This document shows, piece after piece, positions 14,561-27,272 of a DNA stretch of 32,000 nucleotides. The DNA comes from Candidatus Thalassarchaeaceae archaeon (lineage in GTDB: Archaea; Thermoplasmatota; Poseidoniia; Poseidoniales; Thalassarchaeaceae), in the NCBI GenBank assembly GCA_045568075.1, contig JBJLBP010000001.1, positions 600,001 to 632,000 on the forward strand, written 5' to 3'. The notes under the pieces were generated by a model. The model did no database searches and had not been told where the DNA came from. It was given only the letters and a program-made list of their open reading frames with translations. Each line of letters starts with the position of its first letter. Position 1 is the first letter of the stretch. The position numbers were made by a program, and so were the translations under genes.

Positions 14561-14591
14561 ATTATGTACTCATACGCCCGCGTATGTGATA

Positions 14592-15950
14592 ATGGCCGAA
14601 GGGGCTCCAAGCATTCTCGATCTGCCTCCATTGCGAGGCAACCCCTTCGACCTGAGGCCAATCGAGCCAAGCCGTGCAGAATACCTAGTTGGCCGCGACA
14701 AACTTGTCACGGAGTGGAGAGAGCATCTGATTTCTCAAACTCCGAGGATGCTCCTCCTGGTCGGCGACAGAGGCTCTGGTAGGACTTCTCTGCTCAACAC
14801 CCTCGCCTCTACCACATCTCGCCGACCATACATTGGGCAGTTTTGGCCCGAGGGTGATGACCCAGTTCAGGGTATAATCCATGAGTTGTCTGTGCATTTT
14901 GGAGGGTTCGAGATCCCACCTACGATGCAGCAGACCTCGGATAGGATGGTAGAAGTTCTTGACAAAGAGACTGGAACTCTGCCATTGATAGCCTTCGATT
15001 ACCCTGCTAAAATCGATCTAAATCCGATTCTCACACGCCTTTCTCCGTTACTTCAGAGGCTCCGCGCCCTAGTCGTAGTCGTGCTCACACCCTCTCAATT
15101 GGCTGGATTAGATGATGAGGTTCTCGAGATGTTTGATTCACCTCATCATCTTCAGAACCTCGATGAGAGGCAGATTCAGGTTCTGTCAAATCGTCGAATC
15201 GCCCGCTCAGCTAATCAGAAGTGGAACATTCGCCCGAATCTTTTGCAGGCGATTAAGCAGCATTCCGACGGCAATCCTCGCCGTGTTATTCGATTATTGC
15301 GTGATTTGGTTGACGAGCGCCATGATCCTCAGGAAGGAGGGGTACTCGAGCAATTGACAACTTGGCGGGCACCGCCAGTGCAGGATTCACCCCCAGTCGT
15401 GGCGGCTCCCGACAAACCTCAGCCCGCTGCAGAGACGATGGCGGAGCCTGAACCGGAGCCTGAACTGGAACCTGTCGTGGAAGATATTGAGGACATCACC
15501 TCCTATGCTCAGAAGGAAGAATCCGATGAAGAAGAGTACGCAGAGGAAGAAGAACTGGACGAAGAGCCAGATGACCTCTGGGGTGAGGAAGAAGAGGAAT
15601 TGGGCGATGAGGTTGCGGAACCTCCTACCTGGAACGATGAATTTGAGGCTCCTCAGGACATTTGGGGCGTCGATGATGCGCCGGAATCGGCAAGTGAAGA
15701 TGAGGAGAGCCGATTCCACCAAGCCGAGTTAGAATCGGAGTCTGAACCTCAGGAAGAATCGACCGAAGAATATCATCAATTTACTGAAGAGCCAGCTTTC
15801 CTCTACATGGAAGAGGGCACTGAACCCCCTAAATCCTCGCGGAAAGGCGGTAATTTCGGTCGCCTTCTCGGTCGAACCATCAGTGCTAATGACCGTATGC
15901 CGACGACTGGCGACGATACTCCAATCACCGTCGCAGACCAACATCACTAG
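14592..15950 (+). CDS. Orc1/Cdc6- or Arch_ATPase-like P-loop protein with Walker A Lys->Arg and a ~170-aa hyper-acidic C-terminal tail
   Basis: The track starts at GTG 14586; the ATG is at 14592. NPFDLRPIEP...YLVGRDKLVTEW...MLLLVGDRGSGRTSLLNTL (GxxGxGRTS instead of GxxGxGK[ST]). LPLIAFDYP is Walker-B-like. DGNPRRVIRLLRDLV resembles the sensor-2 GDAR.A..LL of Cdc6. The tail is rich in E/D/P. Confidence 0.6.
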   Translation: MAEGAPSILDLPPLRGNPFDLRPIEPSRAEYLVGRDKLVTEWREHLISQTPRMLLLVGDRGSGRTSLLNTLASTTSRRPYIGQFWPEGDDPVQGIIHELSVHFGGFEIPPTMQQTSDRMVEVLDKETGTLPLIAFDYPAKIDLNPILTRLSPLLQRLRALVVVVLTPSQLAGLDDEVLEMFDSPHHLQNLDERQIQVLSNRRIARSANQKWNIRPNLLQAIKQHSDGNPRRVIRLLRDLVDERHDPQEGGVLEQLTTWRAPPVQDSPPVVAAPDKPQPAAETMAEPEPEPELEPVVEDIEDITSYAQKEESDEEEYAEEEELDEEPDDLWGEEEEELGDEVAEPPTWNDEFEAPQDIWGVDDAPESASEDEESRFHQAELESESEPQEESTEEYHQFTEEPAFLYMEEGTEPPKSSRKGGNFGRLLGRTISANDRMPTTGDDTPITVADQHH

Positions 15951-15987
15951 CCTTGTTCCGAAGGCCCCGAAGACACCGGTGAGGGAG

Positions 15988-16710
15988 ATGGCTCCAGAGA
16001 GCGTCGAGGACGAAAACTCAGCTGCGAAGATCGATACAAGCGTTCGTGCAGGAGAGGAGGAACATGTCTTCCACGATAATCACGCATTGTGGGTCGTCGA
16101 TTCTGATTCGATGTCGACACTTCCCGATCCGCGAGCCTACAAGCCACCACCGCAACAGCCCGAGCCGAAGGTGCAAGAATTCGAAACCGAGTGGTTCGTT
16201 GCTGAAGGAGAAGAGGAAGAAGCACTTCCCGATGCAGAGTTTGAAGAGGATATCGAACCTTCTTTTGAGCCCGAACCAGAGTTCGAAGAAGTCGAGACCG
16301 AGGTCCCACCCCCAGCCTCTCAGATTCACATCCCTACGATTCCGACAAGCCCTCCGGCTGTAGCCCCACAGGCGATTAGCCCCCCCGCTCCTACTCCGGT
16401 GCCTGTACAGATTCCGGTTTCCTTAGGCCCAACTTGGGAGCCTGATGAGCCATTCAACCCAATCGTATTGCAAACACTAACCGAGGCCGAGAGAATGATA
16501 GTCGAGGCATCTTCCATGCGCGAAGTATCTCCTTCCGATGATGAATTACAAGCTCGCCTAGAGGTTGGGCGTTCCAGACTTTCGCAAATCTACAATGGAA
16601 TGCGACGCAAAGGCTTGCTCTCCGTCCGCAAACAAGGCCGCACGCGATACTTCAAACTCAGCGAGGCTGCAGGTCAGCACCTGCGCGGAGCACCTCAGGG
16701 GGTTGTATGA
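15988..16710 (+). CDS. Acidic/proline-rich protein with C-terminal winged helix-turn-helix
   Basis: The track ORF begins at 15883, overlapping the upstream gene. The in-frame ATG at 15988 follows GGTGAGGGAG. The C-terminus LTEAERMIVEASSMREVSPSDDELQARLEVGRSRLSQIYNGMRRKGLLSVRKQGRTRYFKLSEAA has the MarR/TrmB-like wHTH pattern (helix-turn-helix followed by a basic beta wing). Confidence 0.55.
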   Translation: MAPESVEDENSAAKIDTSVRAGEEEHVFHDNHALWVVDSDSMSTLPDPRAYKPPPQQPEPKVQEFETEWFVAEGEEEEALPDAEFEEDIEPSFEPEPEFEEVETEVPPPASQIHIPTIPTSPPAVAPQAISPPAPTPVPVQIPVSLGPTWEPDEPFNPIVLQTLTEAERMIVEASSMREVSPSDDELQARLEVGRSRLSQIYNGMRRKGLLSVRKQGRTRYFKLSEAAGQHLRGAPQGVV

Positions 16711-17006
16711 TGTCTGATGATGGTGCGACGGTCACGCGAGAAAAGGTCGAGCAGTATCTCGCTTTGACCGCCGAGGCGAGGGCGAAGGCTACACCGATAG
16801 CCAAGACCGATGTGGATGTAGCCCGCCTGACTTCGATGATGAGAATGTGCGATGACTACCAGGCTGATGCCAAGCACTTCCTAGAGCAAGGAGATTTGGT
16901 TAGAGCATTTGGAGCAATCAACTACGCCCATGCGTGGATTGATGCAGCAGTGAGAATTGGATTGATGGATGGGCATGATGATGATCGATTGTTCACATTG
17001 CCTTAG
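16707..17006 (+). CDS. DUF357-family small archaeal protein
   Basis: ATGA overlap with the upstream stop. DYQADAKHFLEQGDLVRAFGAINYAHAWIDAAVRIGL matches my recollection of the DUF357 helical-pair motif. Confidence 0.5.
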   Translation: MMSDDGATVTREKVEQYLALTAEARAKATPIAKTDVDVARLTSMMRMCDDYQADAKHFLEQGDLVRAFGAINYAHAWIDAAVRIGLMDGHDDDRLFTLP

Positions 17007-17017
17007 TTAGATTCTAA

Positions 17018-17022
17018 TTTTT
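17018..17022 (+). terminator. Oligo-T tract after the DUF357 gene (candidate archaeal terminator)
   Basis: TTTTT lies 12 nt after the TAG stop at 17004-17006, at the GC-to-AT composition switch. Confidence 0.3.
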
Positions 17023-17114
17023 ACTTAGCTTCTCCTTCTTCCTTTGATTTATGTATGCGTAAACGTAGTGAATCCAGTTTGTATTTATTGACGAAAGCCT
17101 CAATGATTAGTTTT

Positions 17115-18674
17115 CTATTTTCTCCGAACGAATCCCAAAAAGAAGCCCTCTGTTGCAGATATTTGCAGTCGATTATTGCTTCTTACAATATATCTTACAT
17201 TCGCCCTATCTGCCATGTGTTTCCTACGCCCTGTTTTAGAGTTGAATTCACTTAATGCCTCCTTTAGTGTAGTATTTAATTCGTTGAAAATCGGGCCATC
17301 AATCACGTTGATTGTCTTTTTCAATACAGGTAGGTCATACTTTTCTTTCAATAGGAACGAAAGATCAATCTTCACTGTAGAAGGTTGTTCAGATTCAATT
17401 AAATCCATCAATGCAAATTTTTTGTATAGCGATTCAAGGTATTTTTTATGGAATTCATCCGAGTTCTTCGTTAATCTTTGTTTTGATTGCTGAGCGTTAT
17501 TAGCCTCATCTCTGAGTTCATCAACTCGGGCACTAATTTCAGTCATCTTGTCATGTTTTTTTTGTGCCTTTTCTACAGAACTCATTACTTTCTTGTGAGA
17601 TTCTTCTTGTTTTTTCCTTACTTCTATAATGGCCTTTAGATTGCCTTCAAGTCTAGTGTTTTTCAATTCCACATCGATTTTCTTTCTATCTGCTTTTGAC
17701 TTCTTCACTAATTGGTTTAATTTATCTCTTTCTTCCTTTAATTTCTTTACCTCTATGATATGTTCTTTGACTTGGGCATTGATGCTATTTCTCAGTTTTA
17801 CTTTCTCTTTCACTTTGGAATTTTCTTCGTTTCTTTGATTTCTTCGATCTTTAACTAACTGTTTCAATTCTTTGAATAACTGCATTTTTTCCGATAATTT
17901 CAGGCGTCTCAAAGATTCAACCTCTTCATCATCCAACCTTAATGACGAGTGTTTCTCAATCCACTCGCCATCCTCGTAGGACCAGGTCTTGCCCTTGGGT
18001 GCGTGGCCCTTGGGGCGAGGGTTCTGAGCCTTGAGTGCAGCAAGCGCCTCACGCTCAGCTTTCTTCTCAGCCTTGGCGAGCTTCTTTGCCTCAGCTGCCT
18101 CAGCCTTGTCGAGCTTCTCCTCAGCTTTCTTGGCCGCTGCTACAGTGGGTGAGGATTGGGATTTTTCCGCTGTTTCATCGGAATCGATACCCTGTACAAT
18201 CACCAACTTATCTCCAAATTGAGGATTAGGAATAAATTCGTCATCAACGAAAATGAACCCGCATCGACCGTTCTTGTACCATTTATCAAATTCCTTTAGC
18301 TTGTTGCCTTTCAATTTCAAACGGTGATCTCGAAAAAGGTCGTTTGTTACAATAATTGCATTTTTACTCATTGCCCATGATAGCATGTATGCGTCATCAT
18401 CGCCAGATACTGGGATGATTACCCGATCCTTTTGTGGAATTTCACTCTCAAATGTCTCAATGTTTGCCATTATATGATCTGGTTTTTTTGGATTTCTAAG
18501 CTTCCTTTGCATAACAAAAACTTTGACATCATGACCTTCATTCTCCCAATACTTGTATGCTTCTACAGCACCCAGACCATCTCCTAGACTGTTTATATTT
18601 TGCAAAAAGTGACAAGCCACATTTGCACAGTCAAGGACAACTTTTCTTTTCGTTTTCTTACTCAATCTAATCAC
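17115..18674 (-). CDS. Zc3h12a/Regnase-type NYN (PIN-like) ribonuclease fused to a long K/E-rich coiled coil and an unknown C-terminal domain
   Basis: GTG start; no in-frame ATG upstream of the domain. Residues 11-150: KVVLDCANVA...VKVFV...IPVSGDDDAYMLSWA...AIIVTNDLFRDH...GFIFVDDEFIPNP. Residues ~245-425 carry heptad-like K/E repeats (KEERDKLNQLVKKSKADRKKIDVELK...). Confidence 0.75.
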   Translation of the reverse strand: MIRLSKKTKRKVVLDCANVACHFLQNINSLGDGLGAVEAYKYWENEGHDVKVFVMQRKLRNPKKPDHIMANIETFESEIPQKDRVIIPVSGDDDAYMLSWAMSKNAIIVTNDLFRDHRLKLKGNKLKEFDKWYKNGRCGFIFVDDEFIPNPQFGDKLVIVQGIDSDETAEKSQSSPTVAAAKKAEEKLDKAEAAEAKKLAKAEKKAEREALAALKAQNPRPKGHAPKGKTWSYEDGEWIEKHSSLRLDDEEVESLRRLKLSEKMQLFKELKQLVKDRRNQRNEENSKVKEKVKLRNSINAQVKEHIIEVKKLKEERDKLNQLVKKSKADRKKIDVELKNTRLEGNLKAIIEVRKKQEESHKKVMSSVEKAQKKHDKMTEISARVDELRDEANNAQQSKQRLTKNSDEFHKKYLESLYKKFALMDLIESEQPSTVKIDLSFLLKEKYDLPVLKKTINVIDGPIFNELNTTLKEALSEFNSKTGRRKHMADRANVRYIVRSNNRLQISATEGFFLGFVRRK

Positions 18675-18794
18675 GCGGCTTTCATTTTTGTGTCAGGTAA
18701 ATCGTAGACTAAGCTAGGAAGACCAACATGACTACAAAATCGGAGTATTATTAATTCTACGATTCATCAAATCACTACTGTATGCTGATTGAGA

Positions 18795-19451
18795 TCAGAA
18801 CTGTAAAGGAAATTCTTCATCCCCAATCCAGTATCGTTTGAGCAAACGATTTGAGTCATCAAGTATAGCAGTACGGCCATGTAGCATACGCCCATTATCT
18901 ACCACTAGACATTCTCCTGGATTGAGTTTTAAACACTCAGGAGTAGCCTCTTTCACTGCCTCGTTGAAAGCATCAAAAGCCAATTTTTGTTCATTCGATA
19001 ATTTCTCTTTAGCCAACCAAAATCCTGTTGGTTCAAATAATACTGAATAATATATTCTGTCACCAATTGAAGTCTCGTAAATTAGAGGATGATATCCTAA
19101 GTCACCCTTGAAAATAGCATGCTCCTTTAGATGGATGCTACGGAGGCACTCCCTTATTTCCGAACTCATGGATCTGAAAATACGCAAACCATCGACCATT
19201 ATTGACTGTCCACCCTTTGAGTCTTGAGTTATACAATGCCACAATATGTAATGGGATAAATGGTGATCGGTATGTGGTGGTAGACCTTCTGAAGAAGTCA
19301 CCAATGCAGGATTCGTTCTAACTATTCTAACGTCATTCTCCATGATGGTATAACCGAGGTGGCTTATCAATTCCGGAATGTCATAATTTTCAATTGAAAA
19401 CTGACTCCAACCTTGAAAATTCAAATCTTCCAATATGCGCTCAATCGTCAT
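18795..19451 (-). CDS. Small TauD/TfdA-family (gamma-butyrobetaine-hydroxylase-like) Fe(II)/2-oxoglutarate dioxygenase
   Basis: 218 aa. LPPHTDHH supplies the H-x-D iron ligands. CLVVDNGRMLHGRTA matches the family C-terminal DN.R.LHGR (distal His plus 2OG-binding Arg). Confidence 0.7.
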   Translation of the reverse strand: MTIERILEDLNFQGWSQFSIENYDIPELISHLGYTIMENDVRIVRTNPALVTSSEGLPPHTDHHLSHYILWHCITQDSKGGQSIMVDGLRIFRSMSSEIRECLRSIHLKEHAIFKGDLGYHPLIYETSIGDRIYYSVLFEPTGFWLAKEKLSNEQKLAFDAFNEAVKEATPECLKLNPGECLVVDNGRMLHGRTAILDDSNRLLKRYWIGDEEFPLQF

Positions 19452-19468
19452 TGCTATTATTACGCAAG

Positions 19469-19479
19469 AATTATATTTT
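19469..19479. promoter_or_regulatory. Single central TATA-like box in a 47-bp divergent intergenic region
   Basis: AATTATATTTT is centred at ~19474. The two start codons (19451 complement, 19499) have their midpoint at 19475, so the box is ~24 bp from each. This is consistent with two leaderless transcripts. Confidence 0.5.
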
Positions 19480-19498
19480 CATTTATTCCTGTCGGTTC

Positions 19499-19939
19499 AT
19501 GGCACAAGTAGTAACTGTCAACCTTCGAGACCGAGCCGTTCGTTCCGAAAACATACCTGAAGATTGGACTGAAGAGAAAATAGATGACGCAATTCAGCGT
19601 TATGAGAAATTCTTCCTATTGGCAGCAAAACACCCTGAGAAGTCGATAGCACCGACGAGAGATATAGATGAGATCTGGCATCTTCACATGCTCAGTCCGG
19701 TTGCTTATTACAGGGATTGCATCTCCCTGATGGGAAAAATCCTCGACCATGATGGTGGTTTTGGTGCAGTTCCAGAGGAGTTGCCACAACTCGAACAGAC
19801 ATTCATGAATACTTCGAAATTGTGGGAAGAAGAATATGGAACTCCTTATGTCGGGGATCCCGATACTCAATTGGATGATGATATGAAGAAATGTTGGCAT
19901 AATTGTCAGAGCAGATGTCACAATGCTTGCAAGTCCTGA
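19499..19939 (+). CDS. GRDP/DUF1399-like protein with C-terminal C-x3-C-x3-C-x3-C tail
   Basis: The track start (19394) would overlap the divergent gene; the in-frame ATG is at 19499. IAPTRDIDEIWHLHMLSPVAYYRDCISLMGKILDHD matches the GRDP-like core (P..dID..WH.H.L.p..Y..dC...g..l.H). The tail is KKCWHNCQSRCHNACKS. Confidence 0.6.
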   Translation: MAQVVTVNLRDRAVRSENIPEDWTEEKIDDAIQRYEKFFLLAAKHPEKSIAPTRDIDEIWHLHMLSPVAYYRDCISLMGKILDHDGGFGAVPEELPQLEQTFMNTSKLWEEEYGTPYVGDPDTQLDDDMKKCWHNCQSRCHNACKS

Positions 19940-19955
19940 GGCCCTCTGATTCAGT

Positions 19956-20351
19956 TCAACCGACCAAACGAAGCGAAGGCCCGCTTGTCACTTCGATATA
20001 CGAGCCGCCTGAACTAACCAATCGCTCCTTCAGTCTCCTGTCAACAGTCAAGACTGGCCAACCCGATTCAACTGAAAGCTCAACCAACATATCGTCAGTA
20101 TGCTTCATCCCTTCAATATCTGACATCTTCTCAGATCTCTGCTCAAGCAAGTCGAGTAGTAGACCGCCGCGTGTCTGCGACAATTTCTGTAATTCACTAT
20201 CCACTGAATCCAGAACCAACAATCTAGGGGCTCCAGCAACTGAAGCCATTGCAACGTCAAGATTCAATCTAGCATCGACCAATGCGACCCAGCCACAAGC
20301 GTCGATGAGGACGCTCGACATCACTTCACCCCGTGATGGTTCCATGACCAA
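19956..20351 (-). CDS. PIN-domain protein, Fcf1/Utp24-like (archaeal COG1412 type)
   Basis: VLIDACGW, LDSVDSELQKL, HTDDMLVEL and VLTVDRRLKERL give the four acidic PIN positions. It lies immediately downstream of aIF2-gamma, the conserved archaeal neighbourhood. The start is uncertain: 20351/20345 overlap the eif2g end, while Met11 at 20321 lies 5 nt after its stop. Confidence 0.7.
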   Translation of the reverse strand: MVMEPSRGEVMSSVLIDACGWVALVDARLNLDVAMASVAGAPRLLVLDSVDSELQKLSQTRGGLLLDLLEQRSEKMSDIEGMKHTDDMLVELSVESGWPVLTVDRRLKERLVSSGGSYIEVTSGPSLRLVG

Positions 20352-25845: not shown

Positions 25846-26805
25846 TCAACCGGTGCGCAAACGCTCGCTCTCTCTTTGCACCAATCTTACTCCACTTACG
25901 ATGAGAATAAAGCCGGCGATAAGAGTCCAACCAACCTTCTCATTGAGCAACAAAACGCCACCAAGTACTCCGAAGACTGGCACCAAGAAGACATACGATG
26001 AGGCGGCTGTTGCACCCAATTTCTCGATGCCCATTGCGAACCAATAGTAAGCGATTACTGTGGAGAGTGCGCCGAGGTAAAGGATGGCGTACCAATCTGT
26101 CATCGTGGGTTCTGGAATACCATACTGCCAAGTCTCCCAAGCAGCCAACGGGGTGAGCATCACTGTCCCGATTAGTGAGTACCAAACGACGATTTCTAGC
26201 GTGCTCGCCTCCGCCTCACCTTTCCGACGTTCCATCATCCGCTTGGTCATGTTAGTTGTCATCGCCCAGTTCAACGAGGCGAGCAAGATCATGAAATCAC
26301 CTAGGATTCGATCCTCGAAAGGAATGTCTGTATTGGGACTCCAGCCGGTGACTACTGCTACTCCTACAAATCCGCAAGCAAGGCCAACGAACATCTTTCT
26401 TGAAATTGGTTGGCCGAGCAATGGAGCGGCTAGTAGAACAGTAAAAATTGGATTGAAAGTAATAATCAAAGATGCATCACCGGCTGCAGTAAATTGCATT
26501 CCATGCATGAAAAAGATCTGGTAACCTAGAACTCCTGTTAGCCCGATTAAAGTCAGTGTTTTCCAAGATTGTCGACCAGTAGGTAGCCAGTTGACTTTCT
26601 TTCCTTTGAGCGCTCGCGCGGCGAACCAGAGGTAGAACAGCACCATTGTCACGATGTACCTTAGCCAAGCACCAGTCATTGGAGGGAGGCCTAGTGCTAG
26701 TATTCTCCCAACCGCCCATGACAACCCCCAGATAAATGCGACAAGGAGCATCAATCCGTGGATGCTAAACTGCTTTCCATCACTCAACAGAAGCACCTCT
26801 TGCAA
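25846..26805 (-). CDS. EamA/DMT-family transporter (10 TM)
   Basis: Two EamA-like halves, with repeated hydrophobic helices (FIWGLSWAVGR..., YLGALSTVIAYYWFAMGIEKLGATAASSYVFLVPVFG). TTG start at 26805; the first ATG (26751) would truncate TM1. Confidence 0.8.
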   Translation of the reverse strand: MQEVLLLSDGKQFSIHGLMLLVAFIWGLSWAVGRILALGLPPMTGAWLRYIVTMVLFYLWFAARALKGKKVNWLPTGRQSWKTLTLIGLTGVLGYQIFFMHGMQFTAAGDASLIITFNPIFTVLLAAPLLGQPISRKMFVGLACGFVGVAVVTGWSPNTDIPFEDRILGDFMILLASLNWAMTTNMTKRMMERRKGEAEASTLEIVVWYSLIGTVMLTPLAAWETWQYGIPEPTMTDWYAILYLGALSTVIAYYWFAMGIEKLGATAASSYVFLVPVFGVLGGVLLLNEKVGWTLIAGFILIVSGVRLVQRESERLRTG

Positions 26806-26840
26806 CCCTATGTGAGTCTAGGTCAAATACTGTCCTAAGA

Positions 26841-27242
26841 TTACATCAGATGACTTAGAACACGTTCCCATGCCATTACTCCGAATACAACAATCGAAGA
26901 AATCAGCCACAAATTGTAAGCTGGTTTTGGAACTTCAATTTCCTTTACATCGATAATTCTTGGAATGATCGAACGTAGTGCAATGAAGACAAAAGCGAGG
27001 TAGATTAGTGGGGTGCCCAAGTTGAAATCGATAGCCGCTTGATAGTCGAAATGTGTCATCGCAACAAATCCTCTAGTCATACCACAGAATGGACATTGAT
27101 GTCCTGTCAGATGAAACCATGGACAAAGATTCAGACTATCCACTTCACCATGTGGGAGTATAGCAGAGGTAAGCAATGCCCCTGTGGCAATTGCACCTTC
27201 AATATCCTCCTTTGAAATGGAAAACCCTGAAAATTTCACCAT
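26841..27242 (-). CDS. DUF2752 membrane protein
   Basis: CPWFHLTGHQCPFCGMTRGF is the DUF2752 signature (C..k.ltG..CPgCG.TR). ATG 27242 is preferred over the track's TTG 27272. AT-rich gene. Confidence 0.7.
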   Translation of the reverse strand: MVKFSGFSISKEDIEGAIATGALLTSAILPHGEVDSLNLCPWFHLTGHQCPFCGMTRGFVAMTHFDYQAAIDFNLGTPLIYLAFVFIALRSIIPRIIDVKEIEVPKPAYNLWLISSIVVFGVMAWERVLSHLM

Positions 27243-27272
27243 TTTCCAACATCCTTCCTTCCAGACTTCCAA

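What the first reader, a model, noticed from the sequence alone, without database searches (positions are those of the whole stretch)
17115..18674. Regnase/Zc3h12a-type NYN RNase fused to a ~180-aa coiled coil in an archaeon
Seen: residues 11-150 read KVVLDCANVA / VKVFV / IPVSGDDDAYMLSWA / AIIVTNDLFRDH / FIFVDDEFIPNP. Known: this motif order (hhhDGSNVA, a DD(D) cluster, hhhSND.aRD, F..D.F.P) defines the Zc3h12a branch of NYN/PIN-like RNases (Regnase-1, KHNYN, N4BP1), best known as animal immune and mRNA-decay nucleases. All acidic and Asn catalytic positions appear retained. Inference: an active Mg-dependent RNase. It is joined to an Ala/Lys/Glu linker, a KGKTWSYEDGEW mini-motif and a K/E coiled coil resembling archaeal COG1340-type proteins (ERDxLNxxVK pattern, from recall). 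A ~90-aa C-terminal domain follows that I cannot place. I do not recall this architecture being described. Its location in a foreign-looking islet suggests a conflict or defence effector.
Basis: partly seen in the sequence, partly recalled or inferred. Interest (0 to 1): 0.7.

Follow-up and report, generated by a model that had tools for sequence, protein, structure and literature searches.

The report
Strain-variable archaeal NYN RNase on coiled-coil stalk
A marine planktonic archaeon carries, in a small island that some otherwise near-identical strains lack, a gene for a Regnase-type RNA-cutting enzyme fused to a long coiled-coil hairpin and a small unknown end domain; this combination has not been described and may be a conflict or RNA-control nuclease, but that role is unproven.

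Summary
The ORF (17115..18674, minus strand, 519 aa) and all quoted motifs are real. Residues 9-150 match Pfam RNase_Zc3h12a above its cutoff. All five catalytic Asp of MCPIP1/Regnase-1 align, and the best fold match is MCPIP1. The coiled coil is a predicted two-helix hairpin related to archaeal DUF7121/COG1340. The C-terminal domain is specific to this family and has, at most, a KH-like topology.

Relatives and the +1 frame give a 550-aa protein ending at 17021. A second one-base insertion at 15946 breaks a neighbouring core gene, so both are probably assembly errors.

The host is a Thalassarchaeaceae (Marine Group IIb) archaeon. Strains with 99.4-99.7% identical flanks have an empty DUF357|PIN_9 junction, so the 2.93-kb islet (NYN, TauD-like and GRDP-like genes) is accessory. 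The NYN gene has low GC3 in every lineage and diverges much faster than its flanks. The family is tiny (about 8 clusters in 1.84 billion representatives) and, wherever neighbours could be named, lies in Poseidoniales.

There is no PADLOC, PHROG or viral-contig match and no partner gene, so a defence role remains only a hypothesis.

Verdict: a new domain architecture within a known nuclease family; moderate interest.

The parts
17021..18674 (-). Full NYN / coiled-coil / C-terminal-domain gene as it should read (550 aa after removing one inserted base). As assembled, the ORF stops at 17115.
   Evidence: ORF list. +1 frame continuation. DNA alignment with four relatives. Repaired translation of 550 aa with TAA stop at 17021-17023. 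Relatives are 519-554 aa and full length.
18222..18650 (-). NYN (PIN-like) nuclease domain of the RNase_Zc3h12a family, residues about 9-151. Catalytic residues: D15 (18630-18632), N18, D93/D94 (18393-18398), N111/D112 (18339-18344) and D116 (18327-18329).
   Evidence: PF11977 E=6.4e-13, 49.1 bits against cutoff 23. PDB sequence hits are KHNYN, ZC3H12A/B/C and PRORP2 only. D15/D93/D94/D112/D116 align to MCPIP1 D141/D225/D226/D244/D248 (residue list from PMC5499597). These positions are invariant or nearly so in the family. Foldseek top hit is 3v32_A, E=7.8e-4, probability 1.00. dN/dS is 0.2-0.4.
17946..18209 (-). Variable linker, residues about 156-243. It contains an Ala/Lys/Glu helix (179-217, nt 18024-18140, built from 30-33-nt repeats, GC 0.54), a Pro/Lys-rich basic stretch, and the KGKTWSYEDGEW beta-hairpin (227-238, nt 17961-17996).
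   Evidence: The AF2 full-length model shows helix 179-217 and strands 229-232 and 237-240. The Ala/Lys/Glu segment is an indel found only in the window/P0001-5 subgroup, and the PKGKxWxYxxGxW motif is absent from P0015-19. Repeats D4/D5/D20. GC by segment.
17385..17930 (-). Coiled-coil module of the DUF7121/COG1340 type, residues about 249-430. Predicted as two helices of about 85 residues joined by a short turn (tip RLEGNLKA, residues 341-348, nt 17631-17654), inferred to form an antiparallel hairpin.
   Evidence: AF2 helices 260-343 and 346-430 with pLDDT 85-96. Foldseek hits to antiparallel coiled-coil arms and hairpins, including SMC arms, msmeg_4306 and CT398. PF23435 is above cutoff in orthologues P0011 (48.9 bits) and P0018 (34.7 bits), but reaches only 16.5 bits in the window protein. 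The family profile hits the bona fide DUF7121 protein P0073 at E=3.6e-21. P0056 is a standalone homologue.
17021..17384 (-). Family-specific C-terminal alpha/beta domain with invariant H..DR and G...L positions. In the window its last helix and strand are cut off by the frameshift.
   Evidence: AF2 model of this domain: pLDDT 78.8, element order beta-alpha-beta-beta-alpha-alpha-beta. Foldseek against PDB finds nothing significant; the best hits are DnaA domain I, DciA DUF721, uS3 and Era. No Pfam, PDB-profile or hhalign support. The domain occurs only in this family among the top 150 hits of the exhaustive search.
17123..17123 (-). Inserted base, read as A on the coding strand (placement ambiguous by 1-2 nt), that shifts the frame and creates the premature stop at 17115-17117.
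   Evidence: The alignment of the window with L010, L011, L002 and L009 shows a single-base gap in all four relatives. Coordinate.
17012..19941 (.). The 2,930-bp low-GC accessory islet inserted between DUF357 (16707..17006) and PIN_9 (19956..20351). It carries the NYN gene, a TauD-like gene (18795..19451, minus strand) and a GRDP-like gene (19499..19939, plus strand).
   Evidence: blastn of the empty-site strain L036 against the window: flanks 99.4% and 99.7% identical, and the islet replaces 17 bp. Empty sites in L036, L037, L038 and L042, and different cargo in L039-41 and L045. GC and GC3. Pfam TauD and GRDP-like. No boundary repeats, tRNA or Rfam hits.

Best explanation
The gene encodes an accessory, single-polypeptide nuclease of a Marine Group IIb archaeon (Thalassarchaeaceae).

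Proposed parts and roles:
- The N-terminal domain is a Zc3h12a/PRORP-group NYN (PIN-like) domain with a complete acidic active site. It is most likely a Mg2+/Mn2+-dependent endoribonuclease.
- A flexible, basic and highly variable linker follows.
- Next comes a two-helix hairpin of about 85 residues per helix, homologous to the archaeal DUF7121/COG1340 coiled-coil proteins. If the helices pack antiparallel, as predicted, the hairpin brings the chain back towards the nuclease. The small C-terminal alpha/beta domain would then sit near the NYN domain.
- I infer that the C-terminal domain supplies substrate or partner recognition. In sister branches that role would fall to the C2H2 zinc fingers, SAP/Rho_N modules or GXXG KH-like motifs found in the same position. 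The stalk would act as a rigid scaffold or oligomerisation element, and the NYN domain would cleave RNA.

The gene lies in a flexible genomic island at a fixed hotspot (the DUF357|PIN_9 junction), is present or absent among near-identical strains, and evolves much faster than the genome around it. The most likely biological role is therefore niche- or conflict-related RNA cleavage, of viral or mobile-element RNA or of selected host transcripts, rather than core RNA processing.

What is shown: domain identities, conservation of active-site residues, accessory status and rapid divergence. What is inferred: RNase activity, hairpin geometry, the function of the C-terminal domain and the biological role. 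The truncated ORF in the window is probably an assembly indel rather than a real pseudogene.
For: NYN identity:
- PF11977 at 49.1 bits against a cutoff of 23.
- All 12 significant PDB profile hits are ZC3H12A/B/C, KHNYN or PRORP2.
- The Foldseek top hit is MCPIP1 3v32_A with probability 1.00.
- The five catalytic Asp and N18/N111 are aligned and invariant or nearly so.
- The NYN domain is under purifying selection, dN/dS 0.2-0.4.

Coiled coil:
- AF2 predicts two long helices with pLDDT 85-96.
- DUF7121 is above cutoff in orthologues, and the family profile hits real DUF7121 proteins in return.
- Standalone (P0056) and KH-motif-bearing (P0077) versions of the module exist.

Nucleic-acid theme: two C2H2 fingers in P0015-17, and SAP/Rho_N above cutoff in P0042 and P0045.

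Accessory status:
- The junction is empty in four strains whose flanks are up to 99.4-99.7% identical at the nucleotide level.
- Other strains carry different cargo at the same junction.
- Only one locus was found among 185,579 GTDB species genomes, and about 8 full-length clusters among 1.84 billion representatives.

Rapid divergence:
- Flanks are 97-99.5% identical at the protein level against 84% for the NYN protein (window vs L002), and 83-96% against 57% (window vs L003).
- GC3 is lower than the neighbours' in every lineage examined.

Frameshift as artefact: four relatives lack the extra base, and a second one-base insertion breaks a core gene that is intact in three relatives.
Against: - No enzymatic data exist for any prokaryotic PF11977 protein (PMC5499597).
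- The NYN part of the full-length model has only low to moderate pLDDT, 30-78.
- The C-terminal domain has no significant structural or sequence match, so a recognition role is a guess.
- SAP and C2H2 modules can bind DNA as well as RNA.
- There is no PADLOC hit, PHROG hit or viral-contig relative. There is no conserved partner gene, and no known defence genes are nearby. The gene's neighbours in other strains are sugar-modification genes, so its island membership could be incidental.
- Pairwise dN/dS near 1 in the coiled coil can reflect relaxed constraint on a heptad scaffold rather than an arms race.
- The frameshift could be real, in which case this copy lacks an intact C-terminal domain.
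Confidence: 0.65

Rival explanations
1. Dedicated antiviral or anti-mobile-element defence effector. This is a sharper version of the best explanation: a single-gene immune nuclease whose C-terminal domain or stalk senses infection and releases the NYN RNase, which destroys invader RNA or aborts the infection.
For: - Presence/absence polymorphism at an insertion hotspot that in another strain holds an element with a phage-type RNA polymerase.
- Alleles diverge much faster than the flanks, and a 34-47%-identical allele sits beside an 88%-identical flank gene in L028.
- Low GC3 in all lineages.
- C-terminal modules are shuffled between branches.
- From established knowledge: the animal NYN proteins Regnase-1, KHNYN and N4BP1 restrict viruses.
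Against: - No PADLOC model matches.
- No neighbouring known defence genes, and no conserved partner.
- The variable island's usual cargo is glycosylation genes, so hitch-hiking could explain the location.
- dN/dS is only pairwise and crude.
- There is no host-virus experimental system for Marine Group II.
Confidence: 0.3
2. A non-defence RNA-metabolism factor, for example selective mRNA decay, RNA processing or ribosome-associated cleavage. It would be a lineage-specific elaboration of the widespread archaeal DUF7121/COG1340 scaffold, and dispensable in some strains.
For: - The coiled coil is homologous to DUF7121 proteins, which occur as standalone proteins.
- The NYN domain is under purifying selection.
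- Diverged orthologues occupy the same position next to PIN_9, aIF2-gamma and S6e.
- Poseidoniales hold several NYN paralogue architectures, which suggests a general RNA toolkit.
Against: - Near-identical strains lack the gene altogether.
- It is very rare in genomes.
- Divergence is much faster than for neighbouring core genes.
- Adjacency to translation genes is explained by the hotspot's position, not by an operon: the genes are convergent or divergent, and the junction is only a short spacer (17 bp replaced by the islet) when empty.
Confidence: 0.25
3. The copy in this window is a real pseudogene or truncated variant. The frameshift is genuine and removes the last helix and strand of the C-terminal domain, leaving an inactive or deregulated protein.
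For: The assembled sequence carries the extra base. Neither insertion lies in a long homopolymer. Accessory genes are often lost through frameshifts.
Against: It is the only lesion in the gene, and the sequence downstream in the +1 frame is still fully conserved. A second one-base insertion 1.2 kb away breaks a conserved core gene that is intact in L036, L037 and L038, which points to assembly indels. L014 has the same islet with an intact 554-aa gene.
Confidence: 0.3
4. The nuclease acts on DNA, either structure-specifically or on single strands, rather than on RNA. It would be targeted by its DNA-binding accessory modules.
For: - PIN-like nucleases include the FEN-type DNases (PMC5499597).
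- SAP and C2H2 modules occur in sister branches.
- The best, non-significant fold hits for the C-terminal domain are DnaA domain I and DciA.
Against: - The characterised members discussed in PMC5499597 (MCPIP1 and PRORP) are RNA endonucleases.
- Rho_N and KH-like motifs fit RNA or ssDNA binding equally well.
- The protein has no H3TH/H2TH domain, which the FEN-like PIN nucleases carry.
Confidence: 0.1

Closest known systems
Eukaryotic RNase_Zc3h12a proteins (Regnase-1/MCPIP1, ZC3H12B-D, KHNYN, N4BP1)
   Same: Same Pfam family (PF11977, above cutoff). The same five catalytic Asp plus Asn. Best sequence and fold matches in the PDB. Like KHNYN and N4BP1, the nuclease is combined with a separate putative nucleic-acid-binding module.
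   Different: There is no CCCH zinc finger, no N-terminal KH domains and no ubiquitin-binding or CUE-like domains. The NYN domain is N-terminal and followed by a DUF7121 coiled-coil hairpin. Sequence identity is only about 20-25%. The nearest NYN relatives are other Poseidoniales proteins, not eukaryotic ones. The host is an archaeon, and the gene is a strain-variable island gene.
Prokaryotic PF11977 members catalogued by Matelska et al. 2017 (154 bacterial, 23 archaeal; function unknown)
   Same: Same domain family in prokaryotes, and likewise uncharacterised.
   Different: That survey gives no function and, in the passages I read, no such fusion. The NYN-DUF7121-C-terminal-domain architecture was not found in any paper searched.
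Archaeal DUF7121 / COG1340 coiled-coil proteins (about 200-300 aa, function unknown)
   Same: Homologous coiled-coil module with shared motifs such as R[ND]ExN..V.E..AH..V.. and ..LH.EY. Pfam is above cutoff in orthologues, and profile hits are reciprocal.
   Different: Standard DUF7121 proteins have neither the NYN domain nor this C-terminal domain. The window protein itself scores below the Pfam cutoff (16.5 against 29 bits).
PRORP (protein-only RNase P) metallonuclease domain
   Same: Same PIN-like group as Zc3h12a. It gives the second-best Pfam and fold hits.
   Different: The PRORP score is below the gathering cutoff (27.3 against 39.1 bits). There are no PPR repeats or central zinc-binding domain. 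There is no evidence of tRNA 5'-end processing.
NYN nucleases paired with RNA-binding modules (from my own knowledge, not tested here: MARF1 as NYN plus LOTUS; bacterial Rae1/YacP)
   Same: The same design logic: a small PIN-like RNase tethered to a separate recognition module.
   Different: Those use the LabA/YacP-type NYN families, not PF11977. A LOTUS match in the Poseidoniales NYN paralogues was not significant (E=0.19).

Membership tests
RNase_Zc3h12a (PF11977; PRORP group of PIN-like nucleases) | Sequence match to the family HMM above Pfam's gathering score | tested here: met
   49.1 bits against a cutoff of 23, E=6.4e-13, residues 9-150 covering profile positions 2-141 of 154. All family members scanned score 38-53 bits.
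RNase_Zc3h12a (PF11977; PRORP group of PIN-like nucleases) | Acidic active site: five Asp equivalent to MCPIP1 D141, D225, D226, D244 and D248 (plus N144) | tested here: met
   D15, D93, D94, D112 and D116 (plus N18) align to these positions in the phmmer alignment to 3v32 (residue list). D92-94, N111 and D112 are invariant, and D15, N18 and D116 are at least 90% conserved in the family.
RNase_Zc3h12a (PF11977; PRORP group of PIN-like nucleases) | PIN-like alpha/beta fold closest to solved Zc3h12a/PRORP structures | tested here: met
   Foldseek of the AF2 model: 3v32_A E=7.8e-4, probability 1.00, TM(target) 0.54; PRORP2 next. Caveat: pLDDT is only 30-78 in this region.
RNase_Zc3h12a (PF11977; PRORP group of PIN-like nucleases) | Mg2+-dependent endoribonuclease activity | not testable with these tools
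   Needs a biochemical assay of recombinant protein and active-site mutants.
Regnase/ZC3H12 subfamily proper (orthologues of animal Regnase-1) | CCCH zinc finger immediately C-terminal to the NYN domain | tested here: not met
   There is no zf-CCCH hit, and no CCCH pattern follows residue 151. The linker is Ala/Lys/Glu- and Pro/Lys-rich. It is therefore a member of the domain family, not a Regnase orthologue.
DUF7121 (PF23435) / COG1340 archaeal coiled-coil proteins | Match to the family HMM above the gathering score | tested here: inconclusive
   Window protein: 16.5 bits against a cutoff of 29. Orthologues: P0011 48.9 bits and P0018 34.7 bits, both above; P0006 28.6 bits, just below. The family profile hits bona fide DUF7121 protein P0073 at E=3.6e-21, and P0073 itself scores 45.9 bits against PF23435 over positions 36-303 of 307.
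DUF7121 (PF23435) / COG1340 archaeal coiled-coil proteins | Long two-helix coiled-coil hairpin | tested here: met
   AF2 predicts helices 260-343 and 346-430 with pLDDT 85-96. Foldseek hits antiparallel coiled-coil arms and hairpins. This is a prediction only; coordinates could not be inspected.
KH domain (for the C-terminal domain) | alpha-beta-beta-alpha-alpha-beta core topology | tested here: inconclusive
   The order of AF2 secondary-structure elements fits. The best Foldseek hits are KH-like folds (DnaA domain I, DciA, uS3, Era), but E is at best 0.036. That these proteins share a KH-like fold is from my own knowledge.
KH domain (for the C-terminal domain) | GXXG loop and a match to KH HMMs | tested here: not met
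   The equivalent loop reads GFFLGFVRENR and has no GXXG. There is no KH_1 or KH_2 hit even at E<=10. hhalign against the GXXG-bearing segments of P0045/P0046 gives probability 0.1.
Known anti-phage defence systems (PADLOC-DB v2) | Match to any defence-protein model, or adjacency to known defence genes | tested here: not met
   No hit for P0001, P0015 or the islet genes. P0042 has only a spurious coiled-coil match to JetC at 12 bits. Neighbours are TauD-like, GRDP-like, sugar-modification or transporter genes.
PIN-type toxin-antitoxin modules (VapBC-like) | A small cognate antitoxin gene conserved immediately adjacent | tested here: not met
   No conserved small ORF flanks the gene across L002-L016. 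Its immediate neighbours vary between DUF357, PIN_9, MscS, TauD and sugar genes.

The most novel reading that the evidence does not exclude
This family would be a previously unrecognised single-gene immune nuclease of Marine Group II archaea, among the most abundant planktonic archaea. A Regnase-class NYN RNase would be held on a DUF7121 coiled-coil stalk and controlled by a sensor-like C-terminal domain, making it an archaeal functional counterpart of the animal antiviral NYN proteins Regnase-1, KHNYN and N4BP1. If so, it would also give the first functional handle on the widespread but uncharacterised archaeal DUF7121/COG1340 coiled-coil family, as a scaffold associated with nucleic acids.
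Probability: 0.2. Interest if true: 0.75.

Novelty: new variant of a known kind. Interest (0 to 1): 0.5.

Why it matters
- **No biochemistry yet.** Prokaryotic Zc3h12a-type NYN nucleases were catalogued as having unknown function (PMC5499597), and I found no later characterisation. This family offers a compact, full-length candidate with an intact active site.
- **Possible flexible-genome trait.** It is a present-or-absent, fast-diverging gene at a defined insertion hotspot in an uncultured but globally abundant archaeal lineage. That is the pattern expected of genes involved in virus or niche interactions, which are poorly known for Marine Group II.
- **A clue to DUF7121/COG1340.** The fusion links this archaeal coiled-coil family of unknown function to nucleic-acid enzymes and binding modules (NYN, KH-like, SAP, C2H2). 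That is a testable 'guilt by fusion' clue.
- **A practical warning.** The window's assembly contains at least two single-base indels that break genes, so ORF calls from it need care.

Tried and rejected
- **Housekeeping orthologue.** Early synteny suggested this, but I rejected it. Four strains, with flanks up to 99.4-99.7% identical, have an empty junction, and only one of 185,579 species genomes carries the gene.
- **Recent transfer from a eukaryote.** I considered this because the first non-family hit, P0020, looks eukaryotic. The exhaustive search shows that much closer NYN relatives (E 1e-31 to 1e-47) are prokaryote-type proteins, at least one of them in Poseidoniales.
- **Programmed frameshift.** Rejected: four relatives lack the extra base, and a similar insertion breaks a neighbouring core gene.
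- **KH assignment for the C-terminal domain.** There is only a weak fold hint. Pfam, a PDB profile search and hhalign are all negative.
- **LOTUS/OST-HTH in the NYN-only paralogues.** E=0.19, not supported. Pfam also did not confirm the KH motif I read in P0077.
- **Functional link to the TauD-like and GRDP-like genes.** Rejected, because they accompany the NYN gene only in the window and L011-L014.
- **Negative searches.** PADLOC, PHROGs, viral contigs, Rfam, tRNAs and boundary repeats.
Full report

Yes. The six-frame ORF list shows a 519-aa ORF at 17115..18674 on the minus strand with a GTG start. The region is also compositionally distinct: GC falls to 35-42% between about 17.0 and 20.0 kb, against about 54% elsewhere. 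The three genes in this stretch have GC3 of 0.35-0.41, against about 0.5-0.65 for the flanking genes.

**2. The ORF is cut short by a frameshift.**

Every relative continues for about 27-35 residues past the window protein's last residues: "...GFVRENRKQIIEAFINKYK.DSLRLRIHKSKE". In the window that continuation is present in the +1 frame, as ENRKLIIEAFVNKYKLDSLRLRIHKSKEEGEAK*. A DNA alignment with four relatives (L010, L011, L002, L009) shows exactly one extra base in the window, CGG[A]GAAAAT at about 17123. Removing it gives a 550-aa protein ending at a TAA stop at 17021-17023.

A second single-base insertion, at 15946, splits a gene of about 705 aa into the ORFs 14586..15950 and 15883..16710. 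That gene is intact in L036, L037 and L038. Two frame-breaking one-base insertions within 1.2 kb, one of them in a conserved core gene, make assembly or sequencing error the likelier explanation. I put it at about 0.7. A real truncation cannot be excluded without the reads.

**3. What the protein is.**

*NYN domain.* Residues 9-150 match Pfam RNase_Zc3h12a (PF11977) at E=6.4e-13 and 49.1 bits, against a gathering cutoff of 23. PRORP scores below its cutoff. The significant PDB hits are ZC3H12A/B/C, KHNYN and PRORP2, both with the single sequence (which also gave weaker hits up to E=1, including one unrelated oxidoreductase chain) and with the family profile, where all 12 are these.

In the alignment to MCPIP1 (3v32), D15, N18, D93, D94, D112 and D116 fall on D141, N144, D225, D226, D244 and D248. 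The five Asp are the catalytic residues listed by Matelska et al. 2017 (PMC5499597). These positions are invariant or at least 90% conserved across the family. An AlphaFold2 model of the full-length orthologue P0001 has MCPIP1 as its best Foldseek hit (3v32_A, E=7.8e-4, probability 1.00), followed by PRORP2. The NYN part of that model has only moderate confidence. There is no CCCH finger, so this is a member of the domain family and not a Regnase orthologue.

*Linker.* Residues about 156-243 are the most variable part. They hold an Ala/Lys/Glu helix built from 30-33-nt repeats, which is present only in the window/P0001-5 subgroup. A Pro/Lys-rich basic stretch follows, and then the KGKTWSYEDGEW motif, which is predicted to form a beta-hairpin.

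*Coiled coil.* AF2 predicts two helices of about 85 residues each (260-343 and 346-430, pLDDT 85-96) joined by a two-residue turn. Foldseek matches antiparallel coiled-coil arms and hairpins.

PF23435 (DUF7121) is above its cutoff in orthologues P0011 (48.9 bits) and P0018 (34.7 bits), although the window protein reaches only 16.5 bits. The family profile also retrieves dozens of coiled-coil-only proteins of 200-300 aa. One of them, P0073, is a bona fide DUF7121 protein that matches the Pfam model almost end to end. P0056 is a standalone 208-aa version that shares even the terminal "LHKEY...MDLIEAE" helix.

*C-terminal domain.* Modelled on its own, this domain reaches pLDDT 78.8 and has the element order beta-alpha-beta-beta-alpha-alpha-beta. 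Foldseek against the PDB finds nothing significant, with a best E of 0.036. The top hits are DnaA domain I, DciA DUF721, uS3 and Era, which from my own knowledge are all KH-like folds.

Sequence methods give no support for a KH assignment. Pfam finds no KH hit even at E<=10. hhalign against the GXXG-bearing segments of P0045/P0046 gives a probability of 0.1. A profile search of the PDB also finds nothing. Among the top 150 hits of the exhaustive search, the domain occurs only in this family. I therefore call it a family-specific alpha/beta domain with a possible KH-like topology. The frameshift in the window removes its last helix and strand.

**4. How big and how varied is the family?**

- The word-indexed search of 5.8 billion proteins found about 20 relatives, all from metagenomes.
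- The exhaustive HMMER search of 1.84 billion representatives found 855 hits at E<=1e-3, but only about eight clusters are full length.
- Among 185,579 GTDB species genomes a single locus was found.
- Seventeen further metagenome loci were found, and none in IMG/VR viral contigs.

Different branches carry different extra modules at the C-terminal end. P0015-17 have two C2H2 zinc fingers. P0042 and P0045 have SAP or Rho_N domains above the Pfam cutoff. P0045 and P0046 have GXXG KH-like motifs, which score below threshold. The recurring theme is a nuclease, a stalk and some nucleic-acid-binding module.

The nearest NYN domains outside the family (E 1e-31 to 1e-47) belong to proteins with an N-terminal NYN domain and a different tail. 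At least one of these lies on a Poseidoniales-type contig. Eukaryote-like proteins such as P0020 are more distant. The domain is therefore part of a Poseidoniales expansion and not a recent import from a eukaryote.

**5. Organism and genomic context.**

Exact-match neighbours are named Candidatus Thalassarchaeaceae, Poseidoniales or Marine Group II. Outside the islet the window is core genome: A-ATPase subunits, SMC with ScpB and a putative ScpA, HMG-CoA reductase, DUF357, PIN_9, aIF2-gamma, S6e, Cdc6, Dph2, L10e and MutS.

At first the gene looked syntenic. Relatives sit next to DUF357 (L002, L009, L010, L014, L015) or next to PIN_9 and aIF2-gamma (L003-L008). The decisive result came from looking up contigs that carry the window's exact DUF357 protein:
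- In L036, L037, L038 and L042, DUF357 is followed directly by PIN_9.
- In L039-L041 the junction holds a glycosylation cluster.
- In L045 it holds ThiF, several small ORFs and a phage-type single-subunit RNA polymerase.

Against L036 the window's flanks are 99.4% and 99.7% identical over 7.3 and 7.0 kb, and the 2,930 bp at 17012..19941 replace 17 bp. The junction is therefore a flexible-island hotspot, and the NYN gene is accessory and strain-variable. I found no boundary repeats, tRNA genes or Rfam elements. The TauD-like and GRDP-like genes accompany the NYN gene only in the window and L011-L014, so they are separate cargo.

**6. Evolutionary behaviour.**

- Between the window and L002, flanking proteins are 97-99.5% identical but the NYN protein only 84%. 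Against L003 the figures are 83-96% and 57%.
- L028 carries an allele only 34-47% identical, beside a flank gene that is 88% identical to L002's.
- GC3 of the gene is below that of its neighbours in every lineage examined.
- Crude pairwise Nei-Gojobori estimates give dN/dS of 0.2-0.4 for the NYN domain, and 0.7-1.7 for the coiled coil among close alleles, falling to 0.12-0.22 at long range.

So the nuclease domain is maintained by selection. The stalk and linker are either relaxed or diversifying, and these data cannot tell which.

**7. Most likely mechanism.**

*Shown.* The NYN active site is intact and selectively maintained. It is fused to a DUF7121-type coiled coil and a conserved small terminal domain. 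The gene is accessory and turns over quickly.

*Inferred.* The protein is a Mg2+/Mn2+-dependent endoribonuclease. The hairpin returns the chain so that the C-terminal domain lies beside the nuclease. That domain, and the zinc-finger, SAP or KH-like modules in sister branches, recognises the substrate or a partner. The stalk serves as a scaffold or oligomerisation element. The role is conflict- or niche-related RNA cleavage.

A dedicated defence function is attractive but unproven. There is no PADLOC or PHROG match, no partner gene and no neighbouring defence genes, and the island's usual cargo is sugar-modification genes. I give about 0.65 to the general model and about 0.3 to the specific defence reading.

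**8. Comparison with what is known, and novelty.**

The domain family is known, including in archaea (23 members in Matelska et al. 2017), but no prokaryotic member has a known function. DUF7121/COG1340 is a known family of unknown function. My literature searches found no description of the NYN-DUF7121 fusion or of this C-terminal domain. I class it as a new variant (a new domain architecture) of a known kind. Interest is moderate, 0.5. It offers a good biochemical entry point into prokaryotic Zc3h12a-type nucleases, a clue to the function of DUF7121, and a candidate flexible-genome trait in Marine Group II. Its function is still inferred, and the host is uncultured.

Noticed in passing
window 14586..16710 (extra base at 15946): A single extra A (CAACATC[A]CTAGCC), absent from L036, L037 and L038, splits a gene of about 705 aa (AAA/ORC-like N-terminus with a very acidic middle) into two overlapping ORFs of 454 and 275 aa. 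Together with the NYN frameshift this suggests the assembly contains indel errors.
   Followed up: yes
window 17006/19956 junction; loci L036-L045: The DUF357|PIN_9 junction is a strain-variable insertion hotspot. It is empty in L036, L037, L038 and L042. It holds a glycosylation cluster in L039-41 (NTP-transferase, UDP-glucose dehydrogenase/epimerase, GT4, radical SAM/SPASM, methyltransferase). In L045 it holds ThiF, several small ORFs and a phage-type single-subunit RNA polymerase (PF00940), which looks like a mobile element.
   Followed up: partly
window 18795..19451 (-) and 19499..19939 (+): A short TauD/TfdA-family dioxygenase (218 aa, matching only the C-terminal two thirds of the Pfam model) sits divergently next to a GRDP-like protein ending in a Cys/His-rich tail. 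They travel together with the NYN gene in the window and L011-L014 but are absent from other NYN loci. Their function is unknown, and they have no PHROG or PADLOC hits.
   Followed up: partly
P0047, P0050, P0054, P0055, P0086; locus L030 8001-9458: Poseidoniales carry a second, closer-than-eukaryotic group of PF11977 proteins. These have an N-terminal NYN domain followed by a non-coiled-coil tail with repeated segments such as 'MNYALIGQQFQEMTGIKIREFVP'. A LOTUS/OST-HTH match was not significant (E=0.19).
   Followed up: partly
P0015-P0017 (L017, L018); P0042, P0045, P0046, P0077: Branch-specific accessory modules sit at the C-terminal end of the coiled coil: two C2H2 zinc fingers inserted before the C-terminal domain; SAP or Rho_N domains; and canonical-looking GXXG KH motifs (YIIGRRGANIK, VIIGEGGKNIR, FIGKGGKHI) that Pfam detects only below threshold or not at all.
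   Followed up: partly
window 18024..18140 (repeats at 18054..18135): The Ala/Lys/Glu linker helix is encoded by imperfect 30-33-nt tandem repeats with GC of about 0.54, much higher than the rest of the gene (0.32-0.38). It is an insertion found only in the window/P0001-5 allele group.
   Followed up: no
window about 17021..17300, compared with L002, L009, L010 and L011: The DNA encoding the C-terminal domain is almost identical across alleles whose coiled-coil and linker regions differ by 20-35% at the protein level. This suggests mosaic alleles produced by recombination.
   Followed up: partly
window 25846..27272: A second low-GC patch (GC 0.42-0.49) holds an EamA transporter and a DUF2752 protein. 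Unlike the NYN islet, it is conserved in the empty-site strains L036 and L042.
   Followed up: no
L014 4094..4393: In the one locus with the same gene order as the window, an extra 99-aa Cys-rich, zinc-ribbon-like and very basic small ORF lies between the NYN gene and DUF357. It is absent from the window.
   Followed up: no
L032-L035 (P0056): A standalone 208-aa homologue of the coiled-coil hairpin, seen on 23 contigs, is always followed by a gene for an uncharacterised protein of at least 1040 aa. This could be a clue to the partner of DUF7121-type stalks.
   Followed up: no
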